64,000 nt of DNA. Source: Mobula hypostoma. Taxonomy: Eukaryota. Of this stretch, positions 2,290-57,087 are shown piece after piece. Both the position numbers and the translations under genes were made by a program. The notes under the pieces are model-generated. The model searched no databases, was not told the origin of the DNA, and worked only from the letters and a program-made list of their open reading frames with translations. The DNA lies in NCBI RefSeq assembly GCF_963921235.1, contig NC_086097.1, positions 147,252,001 through 147,316,000 of the forward strand. Reading direction: 5' to 3'. The first letter of the stretch is position 1, and every line of letters begins with the position of its first letter.

Positions 2290-4105
2290 GGTCAGTGGGA
2301 GGCCTTCAAAAGTGAAATTTTAAGAGTGCAATGCTTATATGCGCCGGTCAGAATAAACGGTAAAGACAACAGGTACTGGAATCTTGTTTTTCAGGAGATA
2401 TTGAGGCCTTGGTTAAGAAAAAAAGGCAGTGCATAGCAGTGATAGGCAAGTAGGAATAAATGAGGTGCTTATGGATACAAGAGAACACTTATATCAGGAG
2501 AAATATCTAAAAGAAAGCACAAGGGCTGCCCTAGCTGACAAGGTGAAAGAGAATCAAGAACAAAGGGATTGCAAGGGACAAAATGGGTCCTCTGGAAGAT
2601 ATGAATTGTATTCTATTTCTGGAGCCAAAAGAGATGGGCAAGATCTGAAACGGAATTTTTGCATTTGTATTTACTCAGAAGATAGACACAGAGTTTATAG
2701 ATGTGAGGGAAAGCAGCAACAACTTAATGGACCCTAAACACAGTACAAAGGAGGAGGTGTTGGCTATCCTGAGGCAAATCTGGGAGGATAAATACCCAAG
2801 GTGTTCTCTCAAATCCTACGTGAGGCAAGTGCAGAAACTGCCAGGCCCTAGCAGAGATACTTAAATCATCCTTAGCAATAGGTGATATACCATAGGTCTG
2901 AAGGATAGCCAATGTTGTTCCGCTGTTCAAGAAAAGTTCTAAAAATAAACCAGGAAATCATAGGCCAATGAGCCTCACATCCCAGAGTGGTAAGGTTATT
3001 GAAAATATTCTGAGCGACTGAGAATAGTCAGCTTGGCTTTGTGTTTTTTGAGGAAGTTGCCAGGAAAGTTGATGAAGCTAAGGAAGTGGATGTTGTCTAC
3101 ATGGACATTTGACAAGGTCCTGTATGGGAGGTTGGTCAAGAAGGTTCAGCTGCTCGGCATTCAAGAGGAGGTAGTAAATTGGATTAGACATTGGCTTTGT
3201 CGGAAAAGCCAGGGAGTGATAGTAGATGGTTATCTCTCTGACTGGAGACCTGTGACTAGTGGGGTGCCACACAGATTGGTGCTGGGGTCATTGTTATTTG
3301 GCATCTATATCAATGACAAATGTGAGATGTTCCACTTTAGTAGGACCAACCAGGGTAGGAGTTGCACAGTGAATGGTAGGGCACAGAGGTGTGTGGTAGA
3401 ACAAAGGGGTTTGGGAATACAGGTCCATAATTCATTGAAAGTGGCATCACAAGTAGATACAGTTATAAAGAAAGCTTTTGCACATTGGCCTTCATAGAAT
3501 AAATATTGAGTACAGAAGATGGAATGTTATGTTGAAGTTGTGCAAGACACTGGTGAGGCCTAATTTGGAGTATTGTTTGCAGTTTTGATCACCTACCTAC
3601 AGGAAAGTCGTAAATAAGGTTGCAAGAGTACAGAAAAAATTTACAAGGATGGTGCCAGGTCTGGAAGACCTGAGTTGTAAGGAAAGATTGAATAGGTTAG
3701 GACTTTATTCCTTGGAAGATAGAAGATTGCGGGGAGATATGATAGAGATACACGAAATTGTACGGGGTATAGATAGGGTAAATGCATGCGGGTTTTTTCC
3801 ACTGAGGTTTGTTGGAATTACAACCAGAGGTCATGGGTTAAGGGTGAAAGGTAAAAAGTGTAGGGGGAACATGAAGGGAAACTTCTTTACTCAGAGAGTC
3901 ATGAGACCGTGGAATGAGCTGCCAGCACAAGTGGTGCATACAAGCTTGATTTCTACATTTAAGAGAAATTTGGACAGGTACATGGAGGCTGGGTGTATGG
4001 AGGGCTTCTGTAGGTCGATAGGAGTGGGCAGTTTAAATGGTTCACCACAGACTAGATGGACTGAATGGCCTGTTTCTCTGCTGTACTTTTCTATGATTTC
4101 TATGA
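2290..4105 (+). mobile_element. CR1 LINE, 5'-truncated, degenerate reverse transcriptase (ORF2)
   Basis: ORFs 3033-3497 (FDKV..GRLVKKV, WRPVTSGVP..VLG.LLF.IYIND) and 3649-4194 (ERLNRLGLYSLE.RRLRGD, TRGHGL). Tail (TTCTATGA)n at about 4090-4105. Confidence 0.9.
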
Positions 4106-4954
4106 CATACGAGGAGCATGTGTGGCAGACAGAAGTAAATGGACTGCACAAGGAAAAGAAAAAGATGAAAAGTCATCCAGACAGTTTGTTGTAGAACAGT
4201 TTCAGTCATTCCTGAAAGTGAATGGAATAAGATATACAGTGTTACGTCTGCACTGTACCACCCCGCTACAAACGGTTCTGGAAAGGTTTGTCCAGAGTCT
4301 GAAGGACACACTGTGAACAATGTCAGTAGAACACACTACACTGACACTGAATCAGAAGCTTGACAATTTCCTCCCTGCATATCATAATGCAGCATATTCC
4401 ACAAACAACAACTCACCAGCTTTGCTGTTCCTGGGTCATCCCTTGTGCTCACACTTGGATCTCTTCCAACCCAATCTAAGAAAGAGTATGCAGGACAAAC
4501 AGCTGAGATGAATTGAGGGTTCCTTGAACAAGCAGATTCGATGTTTCACTCCTGGTCAAGCAGTCCTAGTGAGAAACTACAGAGGTGATCAAAAGTGGGT
4601 ATTCAAAAAGGTTAAGGACAGAACTGAACCATTCCCTTAAATCGTGAAGATTGTGTCTGATAACATCTGGAGTCAACACAATGATCAGTTGAGGACAGCA
4701 GATTCAATTGTTAGAGGAGAAAGGTGTCCAGAATTATCAGACCCACTTTCTGCAGTTCCAGAGTCAACTTCTACAACCACTACAGAGGAGACCCCAAAAC
4801 CTGAGACTGGTTCACAGCCACAAATCTCTGTGTCGGGAAAATTGTTTCCTACAAGAATACGAAATGTACCACAGTGATTAAATATTTTGGCCTGAATAGG
4901 CAATTTAAAACTTACTATGCCGTGGATATCTATATAGTAGTTGTATTATATAGT

Positions 4955-5030
<76 letters not shown>

Positions 5031-5195
5031 TGTATGTGTATAAATTGAGATGAGATGCATTCTATATTGAGTTGGAGTTTATGGGTAAGCAGGGAGGAGT
5101 GCTGTGTATTTCATACAAAAATATTTTTGTAATATTTTAAATACATTTCATGACCAAGTATTCTTTGTTTACATAGTTCATTATGGGCTCTTTAA
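4104..5195 (+). mobile_element. Gypsy-type LTR retrotransposon fragment: gag remnant, integrase C-terminal region, PPT and start of 3' LTR
   Basis: Integrase-like peptides QFQSFLKVNGIR, LERFVQSLK and LDNFL.AYHNA.YSTNN.SPA.LFLG. Polypurine tract AAGCAGGGAGGAG at about 5087-5099 is followed by an LTR start (TG at 5100). The 3' region aligns with 28885-29100 and 39175-39750. Confidence 0.8.
4958..5040. repeat. (TG)n microsatellite inside the LTR element 3' region
   Basis: Directly visible dinucleotide run. Confidence 0.95.
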
Positions 5196-6267
5196 TTTTT
5201 AGTTTCCTCCAAAATGTGATACTTTGAGAGAGAGAGAAGGTGAGAGAAAGAGGAAGGGAAGGGGGTGGGGGTTGACGGTGGGGGTGGAAAGAGAGAGAGA
5301 GATAGAGAGAGCTATAATTGCATGAAATATTTCCCTTTGACTTCACTCTTCAGCTATTCAGATAATAGCAGATGGTTTCATCAGAGCTTATAAATGAGTG
5401 CTGGGAAATCAAATATTTAGGATTTTGTTGTCTGCGAAGCTAATTGCCTCTCTTAGCTTCAACTCTGTCCCATGTTAAGATCAGTGCCTCAGACATACAT
5501 GCCTTGACCACTTTAACTCAAAATTAATTATGGTGATTTACGTCAACTAATGGAAATCTAACCTATAATTCCCTTCAGATTGCTAGAATAGACAAAAAAA
5601 ATCTGCCACTGCAGATTATATCAAGCAAGATAAAGAATGTTATACCACTATAATTTTATTCGTAAGCATATGAGGAGAATCATAAATTGGAATACTTGAC
5701 AAGACACAAGTAATATGAACATTTATGACATATATATTAGTCCCATCTGTACTGAAAGGAAGTCAGCTGTTGAAAGATAATCAGAAACAAGCTGAAAGCC
5801 TTCAAGTTTTAAACTGAGTTTTCATTTCAAATGAAGGAAAGGAAAGATCAATATGTCACCATCAGTGGTGAGGAAAGAACATTAACAGTTCATATATTTA
5901 ACTTAGTCATGAATCACAATCACACGGTATTCCAAAACACTTTCAGCAAACCAAGTATCTTCACAGTAGAGTTATATTGTGAGTATGTAAGAAAATGGGA
6001 AACTTTTCCTGCACATGGCAACATCTCACAAGTCCACAAATGTAGTTTGAGAGTTAAAATTTGGCCAGAACATTAGGAGGGATTTCATGTTTTAAAATCA
6101 CACAAAGCAAACTTTTCTGCCCACTTTAGACAAATAGGTTATCAATTCATCATCTCATTTAAGAAAGATGATTGAGAAAAATCAATCGATGATCCTGCAT
6201 AGTCTTGGTACTGTATTAGATTGTCAGCCCTGATTAATTGTTGAAATTACCTGAGCAAATTCACATA

Positions 6268-26086: not shown

Positions 26087-26925
26087 CATGCCTTGAAAAA
26101 GTATTCAGGCCCCACAACTATTTTCACATTACACGTTCTCATTTTCGGAATTTTAAATAATTGAAGTAGAATTTTTTGAACTAATCTACAAAACATTGTG
26201 CATTATGTTAAATCTAATGAAAATTTTCAAAACTTGTCAACAGTTTACTAAAAATTAAAAACCAAAATTGTAAGGCTGAAAAAATATTCATCTCCTTTGT
26301 AACTACTACACTGACTTTCCGGTGCAATAGTGTATATTATCTTACAAATTCACCCAATGTGTTGACGTAGAAATTTGGAGGACCACCTGTTTTCAATGAA
26401 TTCATAAGAATAAAGACAAACACCCCCTCTATATGTAAGGTCCAGCAGTATAGTAGATTTTCAACAGACCAAACCAAAATGAACACAAAAGAACATTCAA
26501 AACTAGTCAGGGAAATGATAAAAATGAAGCATAAATCTAAGGAAGGGTACAAGACCATCTCAAAGGCACTGAACACACCTTGGAGCTCATCATGGAAAAG
26601 TGGAAAAATATGAAATTGCAGCCACACTGCCTAGGTCAGGCCTTCCTCTAAACTTAATCACTGGAGAAGAACGGCATTTGTAAGAGAGGCTGAGAGACCA
26701 ACAGTCACTCTGAGTGAACTGCAGAAGTCCAGCGGCTGCAACTGGAGATGAAGTTTGTGGCTTCAGAATCTCTAAAGCCTTGCACAAAAATGGTGTTTAT
26801 GGAAAAGTGGCAATGAAGAGCCCTGCCTACAAAAAAAGCATGTCCTTGCCCATAAGAAACTTTGCAAAGCATCACCTAGAAGATATTATAAAGATGTGGA
26901 AGAAAGTCGTGTGCTCGGATGAGAC
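26087..26925 (+). mobile_element. Tc1/mariner transposon, left part with degenerate transposase
   Basis: TA followed by a TIR-like CA(G)TGCCTTGAAAAAGTATTCAG. The transposase from ATG 26479 reads MNTKEHSKLVREMI..HKS.EGYKTISKAL.TPWS...RSGLP.KL..., then FAKHHL...MWKKVVCSDET (first catalytic D). Confidence 0.9.
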
Positions 26926-27170
26926 TATTCCTGCAGAAAGCAGAGGGTTGAGGGGGAGAAGAGGGAGGAGGTAAATATGCATTTGGTGGTAAGATCCTGT
27001 TCAAGATGGTGGAAGTTGCAGAGAATGATAGGTTGGATGTGGAGGCCCATGGGATGATAGGTGAGGAGAAGAGGAACTAAATCCCTGTTAGGGAGGCGTG
27101 AAGATGGGGTGAGCACAGATGTCCAGGAAGTGGAAGAGACGCAGGTGAGGGCAGCAACAATGGTGGGTCT
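26926..27170 (-). mobile_element. Penelope-like element internal fragment truncating the Tc1
   Basis: Minus-strand peptide NRDLVPLLLTYHPMGLHIQPIILCNFHHLEQD..TKCIF matches the Penelope linker also seen at 51960-52010. Confidence 0.75.
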
Positions 27171-27291
27171 CAGACTATTATTTCTTTTTCTCTTTCTCAA
27201 CTTGTACTAAATTTGTTATGTTCATTTTGCTGTTTACTTTTGTGCACATGTAAGTTATATATAATTGATACCAATTTGAGTTGATGTTAAC

Positions 27292-29300
27292 TGTTGTGTA
27301 ATTAATAATTCAGTAGCATTTAAGCAATATTGTAAATGTATTGTTTGATTATGCACTCTTGTTTGTTTAAATTGTTTGAATGTGGCTGAATTGAAGAGAT
27401 TGTATGATATTGTCAGTTGAAAATGGGTTTAATGATGCACCTGGAGATCATTTAGCTTGTGGAATTTTACAAGAAAGTATTTAAAAATGGCTCCTAATGG
27501 AAGCTCTACTTGCATTTCAAAGAGCAGTTGAAACTGCTGTACCATTGGAAACTGCAGACTGAGATGCAATTAAGAATGAAAGTAAGCATGAACAAAATTC
27601 CAACATCTAAACAGAAACAGACCTGGTCAAACAAATTGTTTTACCGTTTTGGCAAGGGCTCACAAACACCAGACCAATGCAGATTTAATGGTGAAACTTT
27701 CAGAAAATGCAACAAAGTAGGGAACAAACAAAGAGTATGTTGGGCAGACAAAAGTAAATGGATGCACAGAGAAAAGGAAAAGCTAAAACATCAAGTTGCA
27801 GTTTCAAAAACAAATTTGAGTGCTGCTGATGAAAAATCTGATAATGATGAGAGTGATACAGGACTGAGTAGCCTTGAGACTTATAATGTGAAGCTAACAA
27901 TAGACAGGCAATATGGCTTGCACCAGAATTGAATGGCAATTTAATTAAATGAGGATTGAACACTGGTTTGGCTGTTTCAGTCATTCCGTAAAATAAGTTT
28001 GAACAACATTTCAAAGATACTAAACTGAAGCCTTAAGATATCCAACCCAGAGCTTAATTTGGAGAAAAGAAAACTCCTGTGAGAATGAAATTTGTAACAG
28101 TGAAATACAACAACCAACAGCCATATTGGGCTTGTATGTGGTAAAAACAGGAGGGCTAGCATTGTGGGGACATGATTGGCTGAGACAACTGCTAGTTGAT
28201 TGGAGATCATGCAGCATGCACATCTCCTGCAAGAGAGTAAAAGTGAATTAAGAATGGTACTGGATGATGTTAAAACTGACTCTGTATTGTACACCAAGAA
28301 CCATTGCCCAGCAGAGGGCAAACAGGTGTTGGTGCCAACCTCTGTGCCTCTGGTGGGAATGCATATTGGATCAAGGAAGGATCATCCTGCTCAGGGGAAT
28401 TGTGAAAATGACCAAAAGCAGTGGTCCAACTCCCCACAGCTTTTGTAGGCGGTATATCAGAAAAGGCTTCTGATATGCTAATCAGGTGGTTACTTAAGAA
28501 ATGTGGCTTAGTTTTCATCTGGAAGAGAGTCCAAGGACCTTCAGGAAAGTTGCAAGCATTTGGTTTTTGTGAGTATAGAAAACCAGAATCTACTCTGTGT
28601 GCATTTAGAGAATTGCATGAACTTCAAGTGAGAGACAAAAAGCTGCTTGTAAAAGTAGATGCAAAGACCAAAGCCCCACTGGATGAATGGAATGCCAAAA
28701 AGAAAGGAGTCAGTGGTGATACAAAAACAGGGGATTCATCAGATGATGCTGTCGATGAGGAAACCAAAAGAGATCAGATCGTCAAGGGAAAAATAAAAGG
28801 ATAAATAAGAGAACTCCAGTGAACTAAATTCACCTTCCCAAGATCAAGATGTACAAACTAGAAGGGAAAAAGAAGGAGAAGAAATGTGTCTACAACTGTC
28901 AGAACCCATTTCCTGCTGTATCAGCGTCAACTCCTACAACCATAATGGTAGAGTGCCCAAAACCTGAAATGGTTTTATATCATGTACTGTGTTTGTCGTT
29001 CAGATGTGCTCTATATTGAGTTAAAGTTAATAGCTAAACAGGGAGGAATGTTGTGCACTTAATATTTCAGTAGCACTTGAGTAATATTGTAAATATATTG
29101 TTTGATTAAGCATTCTTGTTTGTTAAAATAATTCATTACGTGTCCTATGTAAAAATACTGTAAGCGAATTGCATATGTCATCACATTACCGTGTAATGTG
29201 TGTGCATCTTGCTTAAAGTAAACATGAAGTTAGAATCACAGTTTGGACTTCCATCTTTTCTTATTAATTAGTTAATGTTTTCAAGTTACAAGACATAAAA
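27292..29300 (+). mobile_element. Non-autonomous Gypsy-type LTR retrotransposon carrying a captured RBM25 fragment (copy 1)
   Basis: Partial 5' LTR TGTTGTG from 27292. Degenerate gag with two CCHC-like knuckles (about 27635-27740) and a protease-like motif (LNTG.AVSVI, about 27955). RBM25 cargo, PPT CAGGGAGGAA, and 3' LTR 29049-29300. TSD TTAAC at 27287-27291 and 29301-29305. Confidence 0.85.
28326..28884 (+). pseudogene. RBM25: Intron-less retrocopy fragment of RNA-binding motif protein 25 (RRM region)
   Basis: Translates, with frameshifts, to VLVPTSVPLVG.HIG.RKDHP..., FVGGISEKASDMLIRWLLKKCGLVFIWKRVQGPSGKLQAFGFCEYRKPESTL..F.ELHELQV.DKKLLVKVDAKTKA.LDEW.AKKK...DEETKRDQIVKG, then SSELNSPSQ...KKEKK. 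This matches vertebrate RBM25 as I recall it. Confidence 0.92.
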
Positions 29301-29699
29301 TTAACTCATGTTTTTTCTTATTTGTAATCAGATGAGCTGTTGCTGAAGAAATCTAATTTTCATCGTATTTGTATGCTATGTACGTATGTCTTTGATAATA
29401 AAGTAAAACCTGTTCTCAAAACTGCCTTCAAAATTCTTGTGGATATGAAATCTGCTAAATTAATACAAGTTTTACTTTGCTATGCATCAGAGTTTCCATT
29501 TTGTAGGGAAGATATACACTATTCCCAGTACCCTGGCTAATCAATATAAGAAGGTAAGTAAATGAGCTACCTTCATGAATTTTGTGTCTTATGCAAGTCC
29601 ATTTCCAATGTAAATTTACATTAGAATCTACATGTTATGATAGTAACCACACAAAATTAACTCTAATGTGCATTAATATCTGATAGATCCCAATTAATT

Positions 29700-36792: not shown

Positions 36793-37405
36793 CAAAGTTC
36801 AAAGTATAATGTAAAACTTATTATCAGAGTACATACATATTACCACATACAACCCTGAGATTCTTTTTCTGCGGGCATATTTAGCAAATCTATAGAACAG
36901 TAACTGTAAACTGTAAACAGCAGGGACTGTTATCTGTAAACAAACTGCAATTCAGGTATAAATAAATCGCAATAAGTAACAAGCCCTTAAGTGAGTATAG
37001 CTATCCCCTCTTGTTCAAGAGCCTGATGGCTGAGGACTAATAATTGTTCTTGAACCTGGTAGAGTGAGTCCTGATACACCTGTACCTTTGGACTGATGGG
37101 ACCAGCAAGAAAAGAACATGGCCTGGGTGCTGAGGATTTTTGATGATGGATGCTGCTTTTCTACGGCAATGGTTCATGTAAATGTGCTCAATGGTTGGGA
37201 GGGGTTTACCCATGATATACACCACCGAATCCACTATCTTCTGTAGGATTTTCCACTCAGATGCATTGGTGTTCTCATACCAGGCCATAATGCAGCCAAT
37301 CAGCACATCTTCCACCACACATACATCAAAGTTTGCCGAGGTTTTCAATGAGATGCTGAACCTCCACAAATCCTGAGAAAGTAGAGGCGCTGCTGTGCTT
37401 TCATT
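36793..37405 (-). mobile_element. Rex/Babar-type LINE 3' fragment
   Basis: ORF 37037-37369: VLIGCIMAWY.N.NASE.KILQKIVD...PLPTIEHIY..CRRKAASIIKNPQHPGH.LF.L.PS..RYR...TRFKNNY. Confidence 0.9.
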
Positions 37406-38778
37406 AAGTCATCACTGAAATGACAATGCTCAGACAATCAATTCAATTCAGCCACATGCGCTGAAATGGATTCCCCTCCATTTTGATTCTGCTTATGAAA
37501 CTGAAAGTGTTCTGCAATTAACAACAATTTTGGTTCTAAATGCAGTTGAAACGCAGTCAGACATTTGAATTTGGAAATAGCGCAGTGAAGAATGGTACTC
37601 AAAAATTGAGTATAAACAAGAACACAGCATGTGCTTCTTCAGGAAGAGGAGAGGCTGCTCAAATTTAAAAAAGGCAGGAAATGGACAAATTCACAGGTTT
37701 TTTAAACAGGTGGTACTAGGTGAAAATAATTATAGGTAAAAAAGCTACACCTGGAAGATAGATGGGTTCGATTGCACAAAAGATATTTGGATTTTGTATA
37801 CTAAACAAACTGAGCAATATTTTAAAGCAAGTGAAATAGCCACTGAGAAATAAGTACCAGTTTTGCAGAGTGCTTTGGACTTAAAGGCACACTGTATGCT
37901 TCAAAGTTTGACTCCTCCAACTAAACCTGCTGAAGTTACCTTTGCTGATATCATATCAGGGACGTTCAAAACCAAAACCATTGTTGATTGTAGAACACTT
38001 CCAGTTTCGTAAATGGAATCAAGAGGAAGGGGAGTCTATTTCAGTGCATATGACTGAATTGGACTCCAATATATCTGAGCAGTGATGGATTTAGAGAAGC
38101 ACTACGAAATTGTTCAGTTTTGTGGAATCTTACAAGAAAACATTCAGAAATGGCTCCTAACTGAAGCACAACTTACCTTTAAAAGAGCAGTTGAAATTGC
38201 TTTATCAATGGAAACAGCAGACAGAGATTGAATTGCACTCAGGAATGAAAGTGAGCGTGAGCAAATTTGCAATCTCTAAACAGAAGCAGGCAAACAAATT
38301 GCGATACCATTGTGGCAGGGGCTCACTTGTACCAGATAATGCAGACTTTAAGTCAAAACTTGAAAAAGATGCAACAAAGTAGGACACATATGAAGAGCAT
38401 GTCAGGTAGACAAAAAAAAACAGACTGCTCAGGAAAGAGAAAAAGATAAAAAGTCAAGTTGCAGTTTCAAAAAGAGCACTTTTCAAAATGAGTTTGAATA
38501 ACATTTCAAAGTCACTAAAGTGAAGCCTGCAGATATCCAAGTAAGAAATTATATTGGAGAAAAGATAACTCCTCTGGGAATGAAATTCATAACAGTGAAA
38601 TACAACACTGAATGAGTCACGTTTGGCTTGTATGTGGTAAAAAGAGAAAGACCAGGAGATCCATCCACGGTTTGCATGTCGCATCCTCTGTAATAGAATT
38701 AATTGAAATGAATTAAGAAAGGTACTGGATGATGCCACACTGTACACCATGAACTATTGGACAAGAGAGTGCAAACAG

Positions 38779-39174
38779 GTGTTGTTGCCAACTTCTCTGC
38801 CTGTGGTTGGAAAGCTTATTGATGAAGGAAGGACTATGCTGCTCAAAGAAATCTGAAAAGTGATGAAAGCAGTGGTCCGACTGCAACAGTTTCTATAAGC
38901 AAAATGTCTGATATGTTAATGAAGCAGCTACTTGTGACATGTGGCTTGGTTTTAAGCTGGAAGAGAATTCAAGGAGCTTCAGGAAAGTTGTGAACATTTT
39001 GCTATTGTGAGTGTAAAGAACCAGAATCTACTCTGTGTATATTAAGGTTTTTGCATGAATTTCAAGTGAAAGACAAAAACTGTCTGTAAAAGTAGATGCA
39101 AAGACCAAAGTCGAGCTGGATGAATAGAAGGCCAAAAAGAAAGGCGTCGATAGAGAAATGAAAATCGAGGATTC
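38779..39174 (+). pseudogene. RBM25: Second, more decayed intron-less RBM25 fragment
   Basis: VLLPTSLPVVGK..., SGPTATV, SDMLMKQLLVTCGLVLSWKRIQGASGKL*..CYCECKEPESTL.ILRFLHEFQVKDK..VKVDAKTKVELDE*KAKKKG, with stops and frameshifts. Confidence 0.88.
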
Positions 39175-39402
39175 AACCCTTACAACCACCATGGAGGAGG
39201 CCCCAGAACCTGAGATCTTTTAACACAACAACAAGTCTCACCTGCCAAGCATAATGAACTCCCTTGTCAGGAAAGACATTATCCCAAGGAGTAAGAAATC
39301 CTCCACAGCAATTAAATCTTCAGGCCTGAATGGGATAATTTAAAATTTATTATGCTGTAGTTGTCTAGATAGTAGTTGTATATTATAGTATTTTGTATAT
39401 AC

Positions 39403-39624
39403 AGAAGAAGAAGAAGAAAAAAGCCCTTAACTCCGAGTGGAGTCATCGGGATGCCGTCATGACAGCGTTTTTTTTAGCAGGCTTTCTTATTTTTAAGAAG
39501 CCGAGTTGCTAGCTCAATGCTCAACCCAGCACGGATGGAAAGCGTGCAAGGGAGCCAGCTAGATTTGAACTCGGGAGTCTTCGCTTTGAAGTCCGGCACT
39601 GATGCCACTACACCACCAGCTGGC
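39403..39624 (-). mobile_element. tRNA-derived SINE nested in the LTR element
   Basis: Minus strand has TGGTGTAGTGG (A box), GAGTTCAAATC (B box) and a (TTC)n tail. TSD-like TATTKTGTATATA at 39389-39401 and 39625-39637. Confidence 0.8.
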
Positions 39625-41799
39625 TATTGTGTATATAGTATAGTTTATGAGTTGAGATGCATTCTATATTGAGTTGGAGTTTATAGCTAAGCAGGGAGGA
39701 GTGCTGTGTATTTAATATTTGAGTGATATTGTAAATAGATTGTTTGATTAAGCCATTGTTTGAGTAAGTATTCTTTGTTGTGGACATAATGCATTGCGAG
39801 TTACATGTAAAAGTACGTAAATGGCATAGGTCATTATTCTGCCATGTCATGCGTGCGTGTTTTGTTTAAAATATAAATGAAATACGACATGCATCTCTCA
39901 GTTTCCTTGTCTTTCTTTTGATTAGTTTAATGTTTTGGAGCTACAACACACAGCATCTGCCTGCACTAAATGCTGGCAAGAGAGAGGATAAAGCCTTTAA
40001 TCATTGTACAAGGCATGGATGTCAGTGGTAATTCAAAGGACAACACATCCTAACAGGTCACAACAGAAGAGGATACCCATTTTTTGGAAAAGCTAGCATG
40101 AGAAGCTCTGGATGGACACACAGTGAGCTCAAGCATGTGGAAAATATTTGTGCTATGTGAAGCCTACAGAATCTGGACAGTTGTTTTGGATGTTTTGTTT
40201 TTCATTAAAATCAAGTTAGCATCACAAGGATTGTATCATGTGGACAGTCGATCTTTCTGTAAATGAAGTAACAACGTTCAGGTAGAATATACCCTCAGAC
40301 TTTGTCTACCTCTGTGCATGTGTATGTGGGAGGAAGATGTGGAGACCATGGCTGGAAACAGGCGGTGGGGAGATGGTACTATGCACAATTCAAGTTTTTT
40401 TTGTCATGAATGATGTATTTTTATGTTAGTTTAAATATGCAGCTCCCCTCTGGTATCTTAGCGACTCAGTGAGGGAAAGATCCTGACAGCTAAGATTAAG
40501 GAAAATGCCGTGCAACTAGTCATGAAAAGCCTCGACTAAAGATGTTAGAAGGTTTTCTCAGAAAAGCCACTGAATAAATTATTATTATATGTTTAAAATT
40601 TAAAGACCTTTTGAGAAATCTAAATTAAGTTTCTCCAACTAGCATGGCAGCATTTGAAAAGCCTTTTTTGAGTTTTAAGTCAGGTGAAGTCGTTATATAC
40701 TACATGCAGCATACAGATCTCATAGTTACCAACATAGTGCAATATGAGTAATTAATTTATGCTTGGTAGGATAACTGACAAATGAATGCTGATATGATCA
40801 CCAAAGAAATCTGCCCATTGTTCAAGAAATGGCAGAGAACTTTCATCCTGGGAGCCAGTGGAGTGTTTGTAATGTCACAGGCAATGGCAGCACTGTAGTA
40901 CCTCTACAGTATTGAATAATGTTTATCTAGGAATAGAGCACAAGGGGGAACCTTGATAAAGGAATTTAAGGTTTTAAAGTGTTTATTTTGCCCTATAGAC
41001 AAAGAGAAGATGCTTAGTCCAGCAATAAAAGTCAGAAACAAGATCCACAAGTATCAGACAGTCACTATTAAATCTCTTTATGGTATTCAGGAAAAATGTC
41101 TTTAATCAAGAAAATGCCTAGAATGTGAGAAACCGTTCTTTCATTGCTTTCTAAAGCCAATGCAACTGCTAATAATTGTCTATCCACTGGTCAAGCACTG
41201 CATGACTCTCAGTGTTTATCCTCATCCATTCATTCTTCATTCCACTTGCTCGACACATTTATTGAGGTCAATGAAAAATGAATTGCATTTTGGACATACA
41301 ATTCCCATAACTATTACTGTTTGTAGAAAAGTGTTAGTTTAAAACTTATTCTTATTTGTTCGCTATGTACCCACAACTTTTAGCTCTGGTCTTTCAGTCG
41401 AAACAGAAACTGTTATTTCAGTAATCTTCTTTCTGCTTAGTAAGGTGGACACTTATAATTATTGCCATTAGTAATAGGCTAACAGAAGATGAATGGTTTT
41501 GATGATTGGTTATATAATCATAGTGGGTACACTTTTTAAAGATTTTGAAAGTAAAAATTCTTCAGACAAGTTTTAAAGGCAGGAGACCCAGAGTACTGGG
41601 CTGCTTTGAAGCTGTTCTATGACTCAACTGCTAGAATTATTTTTGCTTCTCATTCTGGAGTCTGAATTAACCAATTTACAGTTCAAAGTGTTAAAGTAGC
41701 AGAAGACAGAAGGAAGGCTGGGTTGATTTTCTTCTTATTTTGAAACATAAACTCACTACAACTGCCGTTACAATTTTTTTCTCACAAAATATCAACTAA

Positions 41800-50400: not shown

Positions 50401-51959
50401 GGAAAATAAACACTTAAATAGATAATTATGTACTGTGGTAAATCTAACCTATTAGGCTAAGTAATGGTATTAGTTGATAAGAAAAATGGTAATAATAGTT
50501 TCCATATAACCCTTCTGGACCATTTCCACTGGTCCAAAATGTTGTATATAAGCCTATGTAACAACCATTGTAGGTGTTTATATCCCAATTTGTTCATGCT
50601 TGCTCCTGCCTGCAGACATAATTATCCAATCCCCATGTACTTATTTACTTAATTTTTTCATTTTTTTTATCCCTTTCCCAAATCTTTCCCTTTACTTGTG
50701 TTAATTCTCTATTTTCCAAAAGAAAACAAAAAAAAAAGACATTTAGACTAGGGGTGCTTACGTTAGCAATATTACTGTGTGGATGAGAAGAGCAGTATAA
50801 ATCATTAGGAGAGTCATCTAAAGTCTGCTCGCATTGGGGTTATATATTCAATCCATTTATTCCAGATTTGATAAAATTTTTCTTTTTGAATTCTCAGGGA
50901 GTAAGTCAACTTTTCCATTTTAAATATTTCCAAGATAATTTTGTGCCAATCTTCTAATGCAGGTGGTATTGGATTTAGCCATTTTCTAGTGATTGATTTC
51001 TTACTTGCCACGAAGAGGGCCTGCAGCAACTTTATATCTTCCTTCTGTTCAAGAAACAATACATGCCCCAAATAGAGCGTCTCAAAGTTCAGAGGTATCT
51101 GGGACCTAAGTACCTTAACTAATGTTCTATGAATACCTTCCCAATATAGACTTAATTTAGGGCAATCCCAGAAAATATGAAAATAATTTGCCTCCTTGGA
51201 GCCACACCTTCTCCAACACATCACATTTGTATCTTTATATTTTTCCTGATATGGGGTCTTGAAGTATCTTATAATGTTTTTCCAACAATGTTCTCTCCAA
51301 GTCAAAGAATTAGTCGAGGACCATTGAAAGCTGCAGATTTTCCCCCAAGCCTCCTCTGAAAGTACCAACCCCGCTTCTTTCTCCCACTTCTCTTTAATAT
51401 ACAGTGTATTTACATTTTTAGCATGGGAGAGTGCATTATATAATCGAGAAACTGATTTACTAGGTATTGAACTGCAAGCCGAATTCAGAATCTTGAAAAA
51501 TTCTAATTCTACTGTTGATAGGTCTGTATATCTACAACTCTGGTTAACATAGTTTCGTACTTGAAGGTACCTAAAAAAGTCATTATGTTCTAGGCCATGT
51601 TTGTCCTGCAGGATTTGGAAACTTTGTAATACTCTTTTATCTATAAATGAGAGGTAGGTTGTAAGACCTTTCTTTATCCATAGCTCAAATCTTTTATCTC
51701 CTCTGTTGGGAAGGAATTCAGTATCATATGCACACCATCTAAAGAGTTTTAACATGTTATTAATTCCACATAAATTAACCACCTTCTGCCATACTTTTAA
51801 TGTAAGATTTATCCAACTGTTTTTTATTTTTTCCAATTGGGCCATCAATCCTTTGTCAGCTATTGAGGCCTGTAGAGGAAAACTGTCAACTAATCCAAAT
51901 TCTATTTCCTTCCAACTAGCCTTATATTCCCTATTACACCAATATAACAGAGGGATTAT

Positions 51960-52947
51960 TCTCCGTAACTTCCGCCACCTCCAACGGGACACATCTTTCT
52001 AAGCACATCTTTCCCTCCCCCCCCTCTGCATTCCGCAGGGATCGCTCCCTACACAACTCCCTTGTCCATTTGTCCCCCCCATCCCTCCCCACTGATCTCC
52101 CTCCTGGCACTTATCCGTGTAAGCGGAACAAGTGCTACACATGCCCTTACACTTCCTCCTTTACCACCATTCAGGGCCCCAAACAGTCCTTCCAGGTGAG
52201 GCATCACTTCACCTGTGAGTCGACTGGGGTGATATACTGCGTCCGGTGCTCCCGATGTGGCCTTTTATATATTGGTGAGACCCGACGCAGACTGGGAGAC
52301 TGCTTTGCTGAACATCTACCCTCTGTCCACCAGAGAAAGCAGGATCTCCCAGTGGCCACACATTTTAATTCCACATCCCATTCCCATTCTGACATGTCTA
52401 TCCACGGCCTCCTCTACTGTAAAGATGAAGCCACACTCAGGTTGGAGGAACAACACCTTATATTCCGTCTGGGTAGCCTCCAACCTGATGGCATGAACAT
52501 TGACTTCTCTAACTTCCGCTAGGCCCCACCTCCCCCTCGTACCCCATCTGTTACTCATTTTTATATACACATTCTTTCTCTCACTCTCCTTTTTCTCCCT
52601 CTGTCCCCCTGAATATACCTCTTGCCCATCCTCTGGGTCACCCCCCCCCCGTCTTTCTTCCCGGACCTCCTGTCCCATGATCCTCTCGTATCCCCTTTTG
52701 CCTATCACCTGTCCAGCTCTCGGCTCTATCCCTCCCCCTCCTGTCTTCTCCTATCATTTTGCATCTCCCCCTCCTCCTCCAGCTTTCAAATCCCTTACTC
52801 ACTCTTCCTTCAGTTAGTCCTGACGAAGGGTCTTGGCCTGAAACGTCGACTGCACCTCTTCCTATAGATGCTGCTTGGCCTGCTGCGTTCACCAGCAACT
52901 TTGATGTATGTTGCTTGAATTTCCAGCATCTGCAGAATTCCGGTTGT
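51960..52947 (+). mobile_element. 5'-truncated Penelope-like element (GIY-YIG endonuclease + terminal repeat) inserted in L1 ORF2
   Basis: ORF 52070-52522: PC..NKCYTC...FTCESTGVIYCVRCSRCGLLYIGET.RRL..F.EH...RLEEQHLIFRLGSLQPDGMN. 15-bp TSD TAACAGAGGGATTAT at 51945-51959 and 52948-52962. Confidence 0.95.
52816..52851 (+). ncRNA. Minimal type I hammerhead ribozyme motif in the Penelope terminus
   Basis: AGTC-CTGACGA-A-GGGTC-TT-GGCCT-GAAA-C-GTC-GACT: stem I AGTC/GACT, CUGANGA and GAAA cores, stem II hairpin, and palindromic ACGT in place of stem III. Confidence 0.65.
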
Positions 52948-55900
52948 TAACAGAGGGATTATCTGTGAGGCATAAAAATAATTTCTCAGGCAAGGAAGAA
53001 CCATACCTCCTCCTTCCTTCCCTAACTGTAAGGTGTTATATCGAATTCTAGGTTTCTTTCCTTGCCAAATGAAGCGGGAAATCCATTTGTCCCATTCCCT
53101 GAATTGATTATCATCCACCTCCACCCGTAAAGTACGGAAAAGATACAATAACCGAGGAAGAATATTCATTTTTATAGTATTTATCCTTGAATTTAAACTT
53201 AAAAAGGGGATAAGATTCCATCTATGCATATCTGCTTTTATCTCTGAGATTAATGGCCAATAATTTACCTGTGACAGTGTTGAAAGATCCTTCGGCAGGG
53301 TTATTCCTAAATATTTTAATGATATAGCTTCCCACTTAAGATCGTATGTATCCTGCAATTTTTTGGATGGTGTATAATTTAGGGACATAACCTGCGTTTT
53401 CTTTACATTTATTTTATAACCTGATATTTTCCCAAAGTCATCCAACAGAGTAAACAATCCTATAAATGATTTTTCTGGTACACTCAGACCAAAACATCAT
53501 CTGCGAATAACGCCACTTTCTGTTCAATCCCTGCCACCTTGATACCTTTTACGATTTTGCTCTGTCTTATTAGTTGGGCAAGCGGTTCAATATATAGCGC
53601 AAAAAGGAGAGGAGAAATTGGGCATCCCTGTCTAGTGCCTCTCTCTAAGATGAAGGAGTCAGAGAGGTCCCCATTTATCTTAATTCGGGCTGTAGGGCTG
53701 TCATATAGAGTCTGAATTACTTTAATAAACTTTTCTTGAAAGCCGAATCTTCCTAACACTCTGTATAGGAATGCCCAACTAACCGAATCAAAAGCTTTCT
53801 CAGCATCCAATCCAACTACCATTGTCTCTGTCTTGTTCTTATTAACCTGTTCTAATATGTGCAGAGTTCTCCTTATGTTGTCCTGTGTTTGTCTTTGTTG
53901 AATAAATCCAGTCTGGTCTAAATGGATTAGGCCAGGTAAAAGCTTTTCCAATCTGCGCGCTAATATAGATGTAAATAGTTTGTAATCTAAATTAAGAACG
54001 CTAATCGGCCGATAATTGCCACATTCTAGTTTATCTTTACCCTCTTTAGGAATAACTGAAATAATCGCTTCTCTCCAGGAAGGTGGAGTCTCTCCTCTCT
54101 GCAAGATCCAATTAAAGGTGTTAAGTAGTAATGGGGCTAACTGTGTCTTCAGGGACTTGTACCACTCTGAGGTAAACCCATCAGAACCCGGGGACTTTCC
54201 AGCCTTTAACCTAGAGATGGCCACGTTCAGTTCTTTGACAGTTACTGGTTCTAATAAACTTTCATTTTGTAAATCTGTAAGTTTAGGTAGATCTAAAAAA
54301 TTCAATACACTGTCTATATAGGGTTCATTGGGGGCCTGGGGTTGGGAGTACAGCTCTCGATAATATGTTTCAAAACTCTCTTGAATTTTCCCTATTGTAC
54401 TCTCCACAAGCTTTGTCTTTGGAATCTTTATTTTATGAATTGTATTGTCTGTTTGCTGTTTTCGTAATTTATATGCTAATAATCTAGCTGATTTACCTCC
54501 TACTTCATAATTCTTTTGTCTCAGATAAAGAAAATTTCTTTGAGTTTCCAACGTATAAATATCGTCAATTTCACTTTGCAATTTCCTAATTTCCTGTTTT
54601 CGATTTGAATTACTTTTGTTGCTATCTACAACTTGAAGTTGTTTTAATTTTCCTTGAAGGTCTGCTAATTTTTGTGCATTGATTTTTTTCATGTGAGTGG
54701 TAATGGAAATAATTTTCCCTCTCAGTACAGCTTTCAATATATCCCATAAGATCACTGGTGATGTTTCTCCCGTGTCATTAAGGTCTAGATATTCTTTGAT
54801 TTCTCCCCTTAATCTCTCCATTACTTTCTGGTTATTGAGTATATGTGAGTTTAGCCTCCATAGTTTTTACCTCATTTTCCTTTCCAGGATTAGAGACATA
54901 GAGACTGGGCTATGATCCGACAGATCAATTGTTGCAATATTACAGTTTTTTATCCTAAGTCTAAATGTATTAAAGATAAAGAAATAGTCTATCCTTGAAT
55001 AGGCTGAATGAGGGAAAGAGTAATATGTATAATCTTTACTAGTAGGGTGTAATTCCCTCCAGACATCTATAATTCCCAACTCCTCCATCAATGAATTCAC
55101 TTTCCAAGTCAGAGGTTTATTCTGAGTAACTATTCTTGAAGAATCTAATATAGGATTTAATCTAATATTAAATTCCCCTCCACAAATTACTACCCCTTGA
55201 GAACTGACCATTAGGTCAAAAATGTGTCTATAAAATGACCATTCACTACCTGGAGGAGCATAAACATTCAGCAATGTTATTTCTGTACCTTCTATTCTTC
55301 CTGTGATTTTTACGAACTGTCCTTCTTTGTCTTTAGTCTCTGAAATATGTTCATAATTAAGAGTACTTGATATTAAAGTAGCTACCCCTCTTTTGTGACT
55401 CAATTTATATGATGAATAAAATACATGCTTAAAGCCCATTCTTTTTAATTTTCCATGTTCAGATTGGCTCATATGTGTTTCCTGGAGGAAAGCTATTTGT
55501 GCCCTCTCTTTTTTCAATTTAGACATAATCTTATTTCTTTTAATTGGATTCAAAACCCCATTAACATTATAGGAAATTATTTTTACAAATTCAGTTTGCA
55601 TTTTTCTCTAGTAGAAAAAAAACACTCTCCTTTTCTAACCAAACAGTAAGCAATCCCCTCTCAACAGTAAACCAAGACATATAACCACACCCTAGACATT
55701 TTTGAACGTGTAACATTTGAAAATTTTTCCCGACTTCTAACAGTGAGGCCTGAGCACCGACCCGCCTCAGTTCAGAGGGATAACCTCTATCTTCACCCTG
55801 TGCTAGAGGGCCCTCAGCAGTTTGAATAATCATAGAGAATTTTCTCCTAATTATGGTCTCGACCAAATTGCTATCATTCAAGTTATTCCTCCTAGTTTAT

Positions 55901-55964
55901 TTTCAGTTACCAGTTTTCATTTTACCTTTAAGTCCGATTTACTCTTTACAGTCATTTCTCTTAA

Positions 55965-56951
55965 TTAATCTGTGTTCTCTGTACATTCACGTCTGAATAT
56001 TTGCAGCTTTTCCTTGTAGTTTGACACTCTGGTTCGTGTGGAGCGTCCTCGCCCCACTGACTGCCACGACTTCTGCTGAATCCTCTCCAGTAGCGACTCC
56101 GGTTGGGTGATAACTTTAATAGGTAGTCCCCGGTCCGCCAGGTCCGATGTTGCCTCCTCTACCGTAGCGTAAGTTTTTGTCCCTTCGTCGTAAAAGACTC
56201 TCAGCCGAGCTGGATACAGGGTCTGGAATCTGATGTTGTTTTCCTTCAGGACTCTCCGTGTTTCCGTATATTCCTTCTGTCTGGCAAGAATCCCCAGTGC
56301 GTAGTCGTGGTCTAAACTGATTTTACAGTTGTTCCACATGAAACCTTTCTTTTTCCATGCCCTTTTAAGCACCTCTTCCTTCGTTCTGTAACTGAGAAAT
56401 CTGACCAGAATCGATCTGGGCTGGGCGCCTGCCAGAGGCTATGGTGCCAACGCGCGGTGACCCCTTTCTATCTGTAGGTCTTTTGCGGCCGGTATATCAA
56501 GGTTCTCTCTAAGTAGCTTCTCCACGAAGGGAATCATCAATCCAGGTTTACCTTCAGTTCCTTCGGGAACTCCGTAGATCCTCACATTTTCCCTTCTCGA
56601 GCGGCCTTCTTGATCTATTAGTTTCCACTGGAGCTGGTCTTGTAGCTTCAGCATTTCTGCTATCACCTTCTCTGCGTTTTGTAGCTTCTCTTCAATTCCA
56701 ACAATCCTCGCTTCGGCTTCATCTATCCGCGAGTTAGTTTTTACTATTTCTCCTTTAATATCTTCCAGCTGTTTGCTGTTATCTTGTCGGAACTCGCGAA
56801 TCTCTCCGAGAATCAAAGACAGAGTCACCGATTCCCCCTCATTATCTCCGTCCTGGCTTGCCGTGGGGGAGCTAGGCCTGTCGCCTTGCTGCGTCTCCTT
56901 ATGTTTATCAGCCTTCGGAGTGGACTTTTTAATCTTGTTCTTAGACATCAT
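55965..56951 (-). pseudogene. L1 ORF1 (coiled coil + RRM/CTD, transposase-22-like), one in-frame nonsense codon
   Basis: Motifs EARIVGIEE, EGRSRRENVRIYGVPEG.E, IERGHR and LYPARLRV. The two ORFs are in the same frame, separated by TAG at 56439-56441. Confidence 0.9.
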
Positions 56952-57087
56952 CCTTGCCCCTTTTATTAATATAGTTATGCAATATTATGTATTTGTCTAA
57001 ATTCGATTTTGGGGCAGTTTACCTTCTTTTTTGTCGAGAGACCTTTTCCTTACGCCGCCATTCCCTTGATGACCCGGAAGTCGCACC

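What the first reader, a model, noticed from the sequence alone, without database searches (positions are those of the whole stretch)
27292..29300. Non-autonomous Gypsy LTR element that has swapped its pol region for a spliced RBM25 RRM cassette
Seen in sequence: an LTR-bounded element (TG start, PPT, 3' LTR, 5-bp TSD TTAAC) runs gag, protease remnant, about 560 bp encoding the RBM25 RRM region with no introns, then the post-integrase tail. RT, RNase H and integrase are absent. Established: LTR elements can capture cellular mRNAs by template switching during reverse transcription, and RBM25 is a conserved splicing factor whose RRM region is multi-exonic in vertebrates (from memory). Inference: this is a gene-transducing non-autonomous family mobilised in trans, analogous to retroviral oncogene capture. 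I know of no description of an RBM25-carrying family but cannot check that. The RRM core is still open for 127 codons (28421-28804).
Basis: partly seen in the sequence, partly recalled or inferred. Interest (0 to 1): 0.9.

Follow-up and report, generated by a model that had tools for sequence, protein, structure and literature searches.

The report
Jumping gene carrying spliced RBM25 piece
This is one decayed copy of an old, very abundant Gypsy-type jumping gene that swapped its own copying enzymes for a spliced piece of the host's RBM25 messenger RNA and then spread that piece through the genome, a known kind of accident seen here on an unusually large scale.

Summary
Confirmed and extended. 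The element is an LTR-bounded Ty3/Gypsy derivative. Both true junctions lie inside exons at short similarities to the parent element (7 nt; 8 of 9 nt), the template-switch signature. The cassette has no poly-A or TSD of its own. The chimera multiplied: 2,854 candidate places, with a rough estimate of hundreds to a few thousand copies. All 31 copies examined share the 5' junction, and some keep a longer cassette. Trees are star-like, LTR pairs differ by about 20%, and this insertion is shared with two other organisms. The cassette is in frame with gag-protease, but copies decay neutrally and none is fully open. The 127-codon open stretch is ordinary (10 of 31 copies have 120 or more). The mechanism is published (Tan 2016); I found no paper on this family. 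This scan noted the same family at another locus before, and SUDS3, MYH16 and USP35 captures. The scale is what is notable.

The parts
27287..27291 (+). 5' copy of the 5-bp target-site duplication (TTAAC)
27292..27372 (+). 5' LTR stub (first 81 of about 250 nt); a deletion of about 0.65-0.7 kb follows, removing the rest of the LTR, the PBS and 5' gag
27383..27860 (+). 3' part of gag, decayed, with the zinc-knuckle region (boundaries approximate)
   Evidence: aligns to sister copies; sister-copy ORFs score as retrotransposon Gag (0.94) and weakly as zf-CCHC and PNMA (below cut-off)
27900..28267 (+). aspartic protease and linker, decayed (start approximate)
   Evidence: frames; the L029 ORF scores as a retropepsin (0.92); the same region continues into RT in relative L046
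28268..28277 (+). last 10 nt of host RBM25 exon 3; holds the 5' switch point (7 nt shared with the RT-bearing relative; 7 of 10 match in this decayed copy)
28278..28325 (+). 48-nt in-frame alternative RBM25 exon ('3a'), host place C1:99832586-99832633
28326..28498 (+). RBM25 exon 4 (171 nt in host; two 1-nt insertions here)
28499..28556 (+). RBM25 exon 5 (58 nt)
28557..28717 (+). RBM25 exon 6 (161 nt)
28718..28853 (+). first about 140 nt of RBM25 exon 7 (stop at 28802-28804, two small deletions)
28854..28884 (+). purine-rich remnant of the longer cassette after internal deletion, ending at the 3' switch point (about 28 nt into a later exon, '11'); inner breakpoints are ambiguous
28412..28804 (+). 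stop-free stretch holding the RRM (Pfam RRM_1, E 4.9e-6); a chance survivor, cut off from gag-protease by upstream frameshifts
28885..29035 (+). post-integrase tail and 3' untranslated region, with about 160 nt deleted near 28965-28973
29036..29048 (+). polypurine tract
   Evidence: same tract in most sister copies
29049..29300 (+). 3' LTR, 252 nt; the terminal CA has decayed in this copy
29301..29305 (+). 3' copy of the target-site duplication

Best explanation
A spliced RBM25 mRNA (an isoform with the 48-nt exon 3a and without the exon-8-like insert) was packaged into a Ty3/Gypsy particle in the germ line (inferred). Reverse transcriptase left the element RNA at the end of integrase for the mRNA at a purine-rich similarity in exon 11. 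It copied back to the end of exon 3 and returned to the element just after protease at a 7-nt identity (junctions shown; the switching is inferred). This replaced RT, RNase H and integrase with about 0.9 kb of RBM25 and kept the LTRs, PBS, PPT, gag and protease. The chimera then used enzymes from RT-bearing siblings (inferred) and multiplied in one old burst (multiplication shown). Internal deletions in the Arg/Glu-rich part gave shorter forms, of which this is one. The cassette was most likely passive cargo, and all copies examined now decay neutrally.
For: Intron loss at four exon-exon junctions inside this copy, plus the exon 3/3a join, and at later junctions in long copies L010 and L015. 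A host probe of intron plus exon 3a matches over its full length only at the gene; 37 of 39 other hits start at or inside the exon edge. Both junctions lie inside exons, with similarity to RBM25-free relatives L046 and window 4105-5200. All 31 of 31 cassette copies have the same upstream segment. Cassette search: 2,854 candidates, with all 40 scored at 80-100% identity. Long-form search: 493 candidates. RT-segment search: 4,091 candidates. Distinct flanks: 2 exact 5-bp TSDs, one 4-bp, three 3-of-5 and one 2-of-5 among 7 testable. Star-like trees with the RT-bearing relative inside the backbone star. Private changes: 285 synonymous and 942 non-synonymous against 299 and 928 expected if neutral. 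No third-position excess in gag or protease.
Against: The parent side of each junction rests on one decayed relative each; a genome-wide junction census was not obtained. Nineteen near-fixed differences from the host are all synonymous. At fourfold non-CpG sites, 11 of 71 is above the cassette's own private rate of 5.5% (P = 0.0016), though not above the 10.5-12% rate from LTR pairs and backbone (P = 0.12-0.23). These changes could not be polarised. The backbone is more diverged than the cassette (terminal branches 0.14 vs 0.08). Copies L002-L030 were the best scorers of thousands, so they are biased to low divergence in the cassette.
Confidence: 0.85

Rival explanations
1. Same capture, but the Gag-protease-RRM fusion was translated and useful to the element for a time (for RNA binding, export or packaging), so the cassette was under purifying selection before the burst.
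For: The 5' join keeps the protease frame in 20 of 31 copies (16 at the same 99-nt distance), and natural ORFs in single copies cross it. All 19 of 19 near-fixed differences are synonymous. Short forms lost the Arg/Glu tract but kept the RRM.
Against: An in-frame join has a 1-in-3 chance, and Tan et al. report in-frame ORFs in 14 of 17 young fly cases. Host-side purifying selection alone explains synonymous-only differences. Changes shared by 5 or more copies are 3 synonymous to 12 non-synonymous, as if neutral. None of the 19 falls in exon 3a. Retention of the RRM is partly ascertainment, because the query was the RRM region.
Confidence: 0.08
2. A LINE-made RBM25 processed pseudogene or cDNA came first and entered the element at DNA level (insertion followed by deletion of pol, or microhomology-mediated repair).
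For: The window holds LINE remnants, including a long decayed LINE at 50814-56984. Microhomology also marks DNA end-joining.
Against: No poly-A and no TSD at the cassette. It is cut at both ends inside exons, and pol is replaced rather than interrupted in 31 of 31 copies. A search with the 3' part of the protein found only the gene.
Confidence: 0.04
3. The chimera formed in another cartilaginous-fish lineage, or from a since-lost paralogue, and entered by horizontal transfer or introgression.
For: Synonymous distance to today's host gene is somewhat above the cassette's private divergence.
Against: No near-fixed amino-acid difference over 192 codons, including loose linkers and exon 3a. The excess vanishes with unbiased rates. 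One RBM25 locus was found.
Confidence: 0.02
4. Capture by splicing (exon trapping between an element donor and the exon 4 acceptor).
For: The visible RBM25 match seemed to start exactly at exon 4.
Against: The 48 nt upstream are themselves a host exon, and the real junctions are inside exons 3 and 11.
Confidence: 0.01

Closest known systems
LTR-mediated retrocopies of animals (Tan et al. 2016, Genome Res 26:1663, PMC5131818; abstract, 12 passages and Discussion read)
   Same: Part of the internal ORF is replaced by a partial spliced mRNA, with microsimilarity at both switch points (median 6 bp there; 7 and 8 of 9 here), sense orientation, often in frame, no poly-A or TSD, and ability to act as a non-autonomous element.
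   Different: The secondary retroposition described in the parts read is small in scale. Here there are hundreds to thousands of copies with a nested deletion series, old (LTR pairs about 20% apart), in a ray-like fish; cartilaginous fishes were not among the species listed.
Maize Bs1 (as described in the Discussion of PMC5131818)
   Same: LTR element carrying exonic host sequence, with all copies sharing the switch points.
   Different: 1-5 copies, three parent genes, reported to make a functional hybrid protein. Here one parent gene, far more copies and no sign of function.
HERV-K capture of FAM8A1 (Jamain 2001, as cited in PMC5131818) and acutely transforming retroviruses with gag-onc fusions (recalled)
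   Same: Host coding sequence replaces viral enzymes, can be fused to gag, and depends on a helper.
   Different: Those are retroviruses; this is an env-less Ty3/Gypsy element, and the cargo shows no selected function.

Membership tests
LTR-mediated retrocopy (template-switch type) | cargo is spliced mRNA | tested here: met
   host exons 3, 3a and 4-7 joined without introns
LTR-mediated retrocopy (template-switch type) | cargo replaces part of the internal ORF, flanked by discontinuous parts of one element | tested here: met
   protease linker continues into RT in L046; tail is preceded by integrase in window 4105-5200
LTR-mediated retrocopy (template-switch type) | microsimilarity at both switch points | tested here: met
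   7 nt at 5', 8 of 9 nt at 3'; one parent copy per side
LTR-mediated retrocopy (template-switch type) | no poly-A or TSD at the cargo | tested here: met
LTR-mediated retrocopy (template-switch type) | transcribed from the LTR | tested here: inconclusive
   no run on record as RNA holds the stretch
Non-autonomous LTR retrotransposon family | LTRs, PBS and PPT kept; RT, RH and IN absent | tested here: met
   LTR and PPT in most copies, a PBS-position motif after the 5' LTR in the 8 copies where it is in view; PBS deleted in the window copy
Non-autonomous LTR retrotransposon family | independent insertions with own TSDs | tested here: met
   30 loci on 17 contigs; distinct TSD-like flanks in 6 of 7 testable, 2 exact at 5 bp; L016 and L020 are a DNA-level duplicate pair (98.8%)
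Non-autonomous LTR retrotransposon family | mobilised in trans by an autonomous partner | not testable with these tools
   RT-bearing relatives of like age exist; no intact one was seen
Ty3/Gypsy superfamily | RT closest to Ty3/Gypsy | tested here: met
   best PDB hits of an L046 RT piece are 4ol8 and Ty3-G Gag-Pol 7q5b, E 1.3e-8 and 5.8e-8; other pieces weak or blank; no RT tree was built
Ty3/Gypsy superfamily | order PR-RT-RH-IN | tested here: met
   RT follows protease in L046 and integrase precedes the tail in window 4105-5200; pieced from two relatives, integrase and RNase H recognised by motif only
Mag clade of Ty3/Gypsy | RT phylogeny within Mag | not tested
   5-bp TSD and PBS look Mag-like from memory only; the homologue search with gag-protease found nothing
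Functional retrogene | intact ORF under purifying selection | tested here: not met
   0 of 31 copies fully open; neutral synonymous to non-synonymous ratio

The most novel reading that the evidence does not exclude
This Gypsy lineage is a serial gene-capturing vector in ray-like fishes, and its RBM25 family spread because the captured RRM, fused in frame behind Gag-protease and so releasable by the element's own protease, helped the element's RNA to be processed, exported or packaged. That would be a host splicing-factor domain recruited as a retrotransposon accessory protein. Hundreds to thousands of dispersed copies might also feed small RNAs against the host gene.
Probability: 0.08. Interest if true: 0.82.

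Novelty: new variant of a known kind. Interest (0 to 1): 0.52.

Why it matters
It shows that LTR-mediated gene capture in a vertebrate can found a full-scale transposon family, not just a few retrocopies. The copies are a fossil of a germ-line transcript: they preserve a 48-nt RBM25 exon that none of the 276 proteins fetched contains and that the host still conserves. They can mislead annotation and RNA-seq mapping for RBM25. Retrocopy pipelines that drop repeat-masked candidates (as the VGP methods state) would likely miss them. If sister captures share the backbone, this genome is a natural series for asking which mRNAs get packaged and which chimeras succeed.

Tried and rejected
A Pfam PWI search did not lead to the host gene; its hits on C76 and C2 do not match RBM25. 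A first pattern for the exon 3a donor and one for exon 11 missed the host. Protein searches found no gag-protease-RBM25 fusion protein and no named polyprotein; no cartilaginous-fish names appeared among the named hits, so this is weak. No RNA holder was listed; contigs of the two guessed RNA runs on the element may be DNA, so expression is open. Summed contig depth was not used as a copy number. No tRNA gene was found in the window. Rejected: exon trapping at exon 4; the 127-codon ORF as a sign of selection; an in-frame return to the integrase tail (16 of 26 placed copies are in one off-frame register, 3 in frame, 4 of 30 not placed); a basal long-form lineage that would polarise the fixed changes (L010 and L015 do not keep host states). 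A weak Pfam hit of the L029 protease ORF to a neurotoxin domain is below cut-off and treated as chance. Literature searches found no description of an RBM25-carrying element. RBM25 has 0 occurrences in the main texts of the manta genome preprint and the VGP preprint (passages only, supplements not seen). Repbase and Dfam could not be searched and may hold the family unnamed.

Full report
Setting. The window is G000:C1:147,252,001-147,316,000 in a 3.48-Gb assembly of 200 contigs. Its repeats look like those of rays; that is recalled, and earlier scan notes say the same, but I did not test it. Exon numbers below are my labels, following recalled human numbering.

Observation. The anatomy is as described. 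An 81-nt LTR match links 27292-27372 and 29049-29129 at 88%. The 3' LTR is 252 nt with a polypurine tract before it, and TTAAC flanks both ends. The 5' LTR is a stub: comparison with fuller copies shows about 0.65-0.7 kb missing (rest of LTR, PBS, 5' gag) and about 160 nt missing from the tail. A full short-form copy such as L026 is about 2.85 kb. The ORF 28412-28804 carries RRM_1 (E 4.9e-6). Its listed homologues (120 of 356) are RBM25 or unnamed RRM proteins at 61-72% identity.

Host gene and intron loss. One RBM25 locus was found, at C1:99.79-99.84 Mb on the minus strand, about 47 Mb from the window. I fetched its exons one by one (sequences). Exons of 171, 58, 161 and 177 nt, kilobases apart in the gene, align end to end with window 28326-28853. 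With 21 nt of intron plus this exon as probe, only the gene matches over the full length. Of the 39 other scored hits, 31 start at the exon's first base, 6 start two bases inside and 2 start one to three bases earlier. None of 276 fetched proteins holds this 16-residue insert (best local score 28 against 87 for self).

Junctions. Upstream of exon 3a the copies carry the last 10 nt of exon 3. The first 7 of these are shared with an RT-bearing relative at C76:29,373,180 (L046), which continues into RT there. At the 3' side, long copies L010 and L015 run on through later exons, without the 18-residue insert seen in 3 of 10 proteins scored, across one more splice junction, and stop about 28 nt into exon 11. 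An RBM25-free relative at window 4105-5200 has integrase before the same tail and matches the host at 8 of 9 purine-rich bases at the switch. So both junctions lie inside exons, pol is replaced rather than interrupted, and no poly-A or cargo TSD exists. Each parent side rests on one decayed copy; a genome-wide junction census was not obtained.

Superfamily. An L046 RT piece hits 4ol8 and Ty3-G Gag-Pol 7q5b best (E 1.3e-8 and 5.8e-8). Two other pieces gave E 0.088 and nothing. ORFs of cassette-bearing copies score as retrotransposon Gag (0.94) and retropepsin (0.92) in the Atlas, and Pfam hits are below cut-off. Ty3/Gypsy is supported; the clade is untested.

Family. The cassette gave 2,854 first-look candidates; all 40 scored matched, 39 of them non-self at 80-83%. 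The long extension gave 493 candidates, exon 3a 801 and the RT segment 4,091. Candidates are not copy numbers. A 35-place pattern had 107 exact matches including the gene and hit 5 of 25 assessable copies, which gives about 530 copies (260-1,550), biased low because those copies are the least diverged. I examined 31 cassette copies: L001-L030 and a second copy in this window at about 37.6-39.95 kb. All share the upstream segment; 27 are short, 2 intermediate (L016 and L020, a 98.8% duplicate pair) and 2 long. Seven had both ends in view: TSDs were exact at 5 bp in 2, 4 bp in 1, 3 of 5 in 3 and 2 of 5 in 1, all different; one further fetch missed the LTR start.

Age. Three near-complete LTR pairs differ by 20-21%, and this copy's 81-nt pair by 12%. 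Cassette and protease trees are stars with almost no supported forks, and the RT-bearing relative sits inside the protease star. Contigs from organism B (16 differences in 790 nt) and organism C (65 in about 800 nt) bridge this copy's 3' LTR and unique flank, so the insertion predates those splits (2 DNA or unlabelled runs, one per organism). Sharks mutate slowly (7e-10 per base per generation, PMC10587355, passages), so tens of millions of years or more is likely; I have no calibrated date.

Function. The cassette joins in the protease frame in 20 of 31 copies, 16 at the same distance, and natural ORFs in single copies cross the join. It returns to the tail off frame in most (16 of 26 placed in one register). 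Copies are 85.5-90.3% identical to the host (the second window copy 78.7%), every one has a stop or frameshift, and private changes are neutral: 285 synonymous and 942 non-synonymous against 299 and 928 expected. Gag and protease show no third-position excess. Against plain neutrality: 19 sites differ from the host in at least 70% of copies and all 19 are synonymous. At fourfold non-CpG sites that is 11 of 71, above the cassette's private 5.5% (P = 0.0016) but compatible with the 10.5-12% per lineage from LTRs and backbone (P = 0.12-0.23). The simplest reading is host-side change under purifying selection plus ascertainment of low-divergence copies, with capture shortly before the burst. Selection on an early fusion protein is not excluded without outgroups. 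The backbone's higher divergence (0.14 vs 0.08) is only partly explained by ascertainment; recombination with varied helper elements is a possibility I did not test. Expression is unknown.

Comparison. The mechanism and its hallmarks are those of Tan et al. 2016 (PMC5131818; abstract, passages and Discussion read), where Bs1 has 1-5 copies. Seven searches found no paper on an RBM25-carrying element. Two genome preprints have no main-text mention (supplements unseen), and repeat databases were not searchable. This scan had already noted the family at another locus and captures of SUDS3/RNF213, MYH16 and USP35. I confirmed only that the Sds3 domain is dispersed in many places (119 matches of 150 scored), not its LTR context.

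Verdict. The mechanism is known; the scale, the deletion series and the fossil alternative exon are what is new. Interest 0.52.

Noticed in passing
window 37626-39950: Second, more decayed RBM25-carrying copy of the same family, with a SINE-like insert and a deletion at the cassette's 3' end; a short inverted gag piece lies at 37401-37542.
   Followed up: partly
window 4105-5200: Sister deletion derivative without RBM25: a scrap of gag joined to the integrase C-terminal half, tail and 3' LTR.
   Followed up: partly
L046:1900-4710 and L046:600-1300 (C76:29.37 Mb): Decayed RT-bearing relative (gag, protease, RT, RNase H) and, beside it on the other strand, an internally deleted integrase-tail-LTR piece.
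   Followed up: partly
L057 (C1:99832586-99832633): A 48-nt in-frame alternative exon of RBM25, absent from all 276 proteins fetched and nearly unchanged since capture.
   Followed up: partly
L015:527-1203: A 51-bp tandem array has grown out of the integrase-tail sequence right behind a long cassette.
   Followed up: no
L016 and L020 (C96, 1.2 Mb apart): Inverted near-identical pair of intermediate-form copies; L016 also holds a tandem second cassette.
   Followed up: no
window 50814-56984 (- strand): Long LINE with ORF1-like and endonuclease-RT frames in few pieces, interrupted by another repeat near 51900-52800.
   Followed up: no
window 26270-26935: Decayed Tc1/mariner-like transposase remnant just upstream of the element (recognised from the translation, not searched).
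   Followed up: no
G000, genome-wide: Sds3 domain matches at 119 dispersed places, some in open frames of 500-680 codons, for example C76:11186977-11187441.
   Followed up: no
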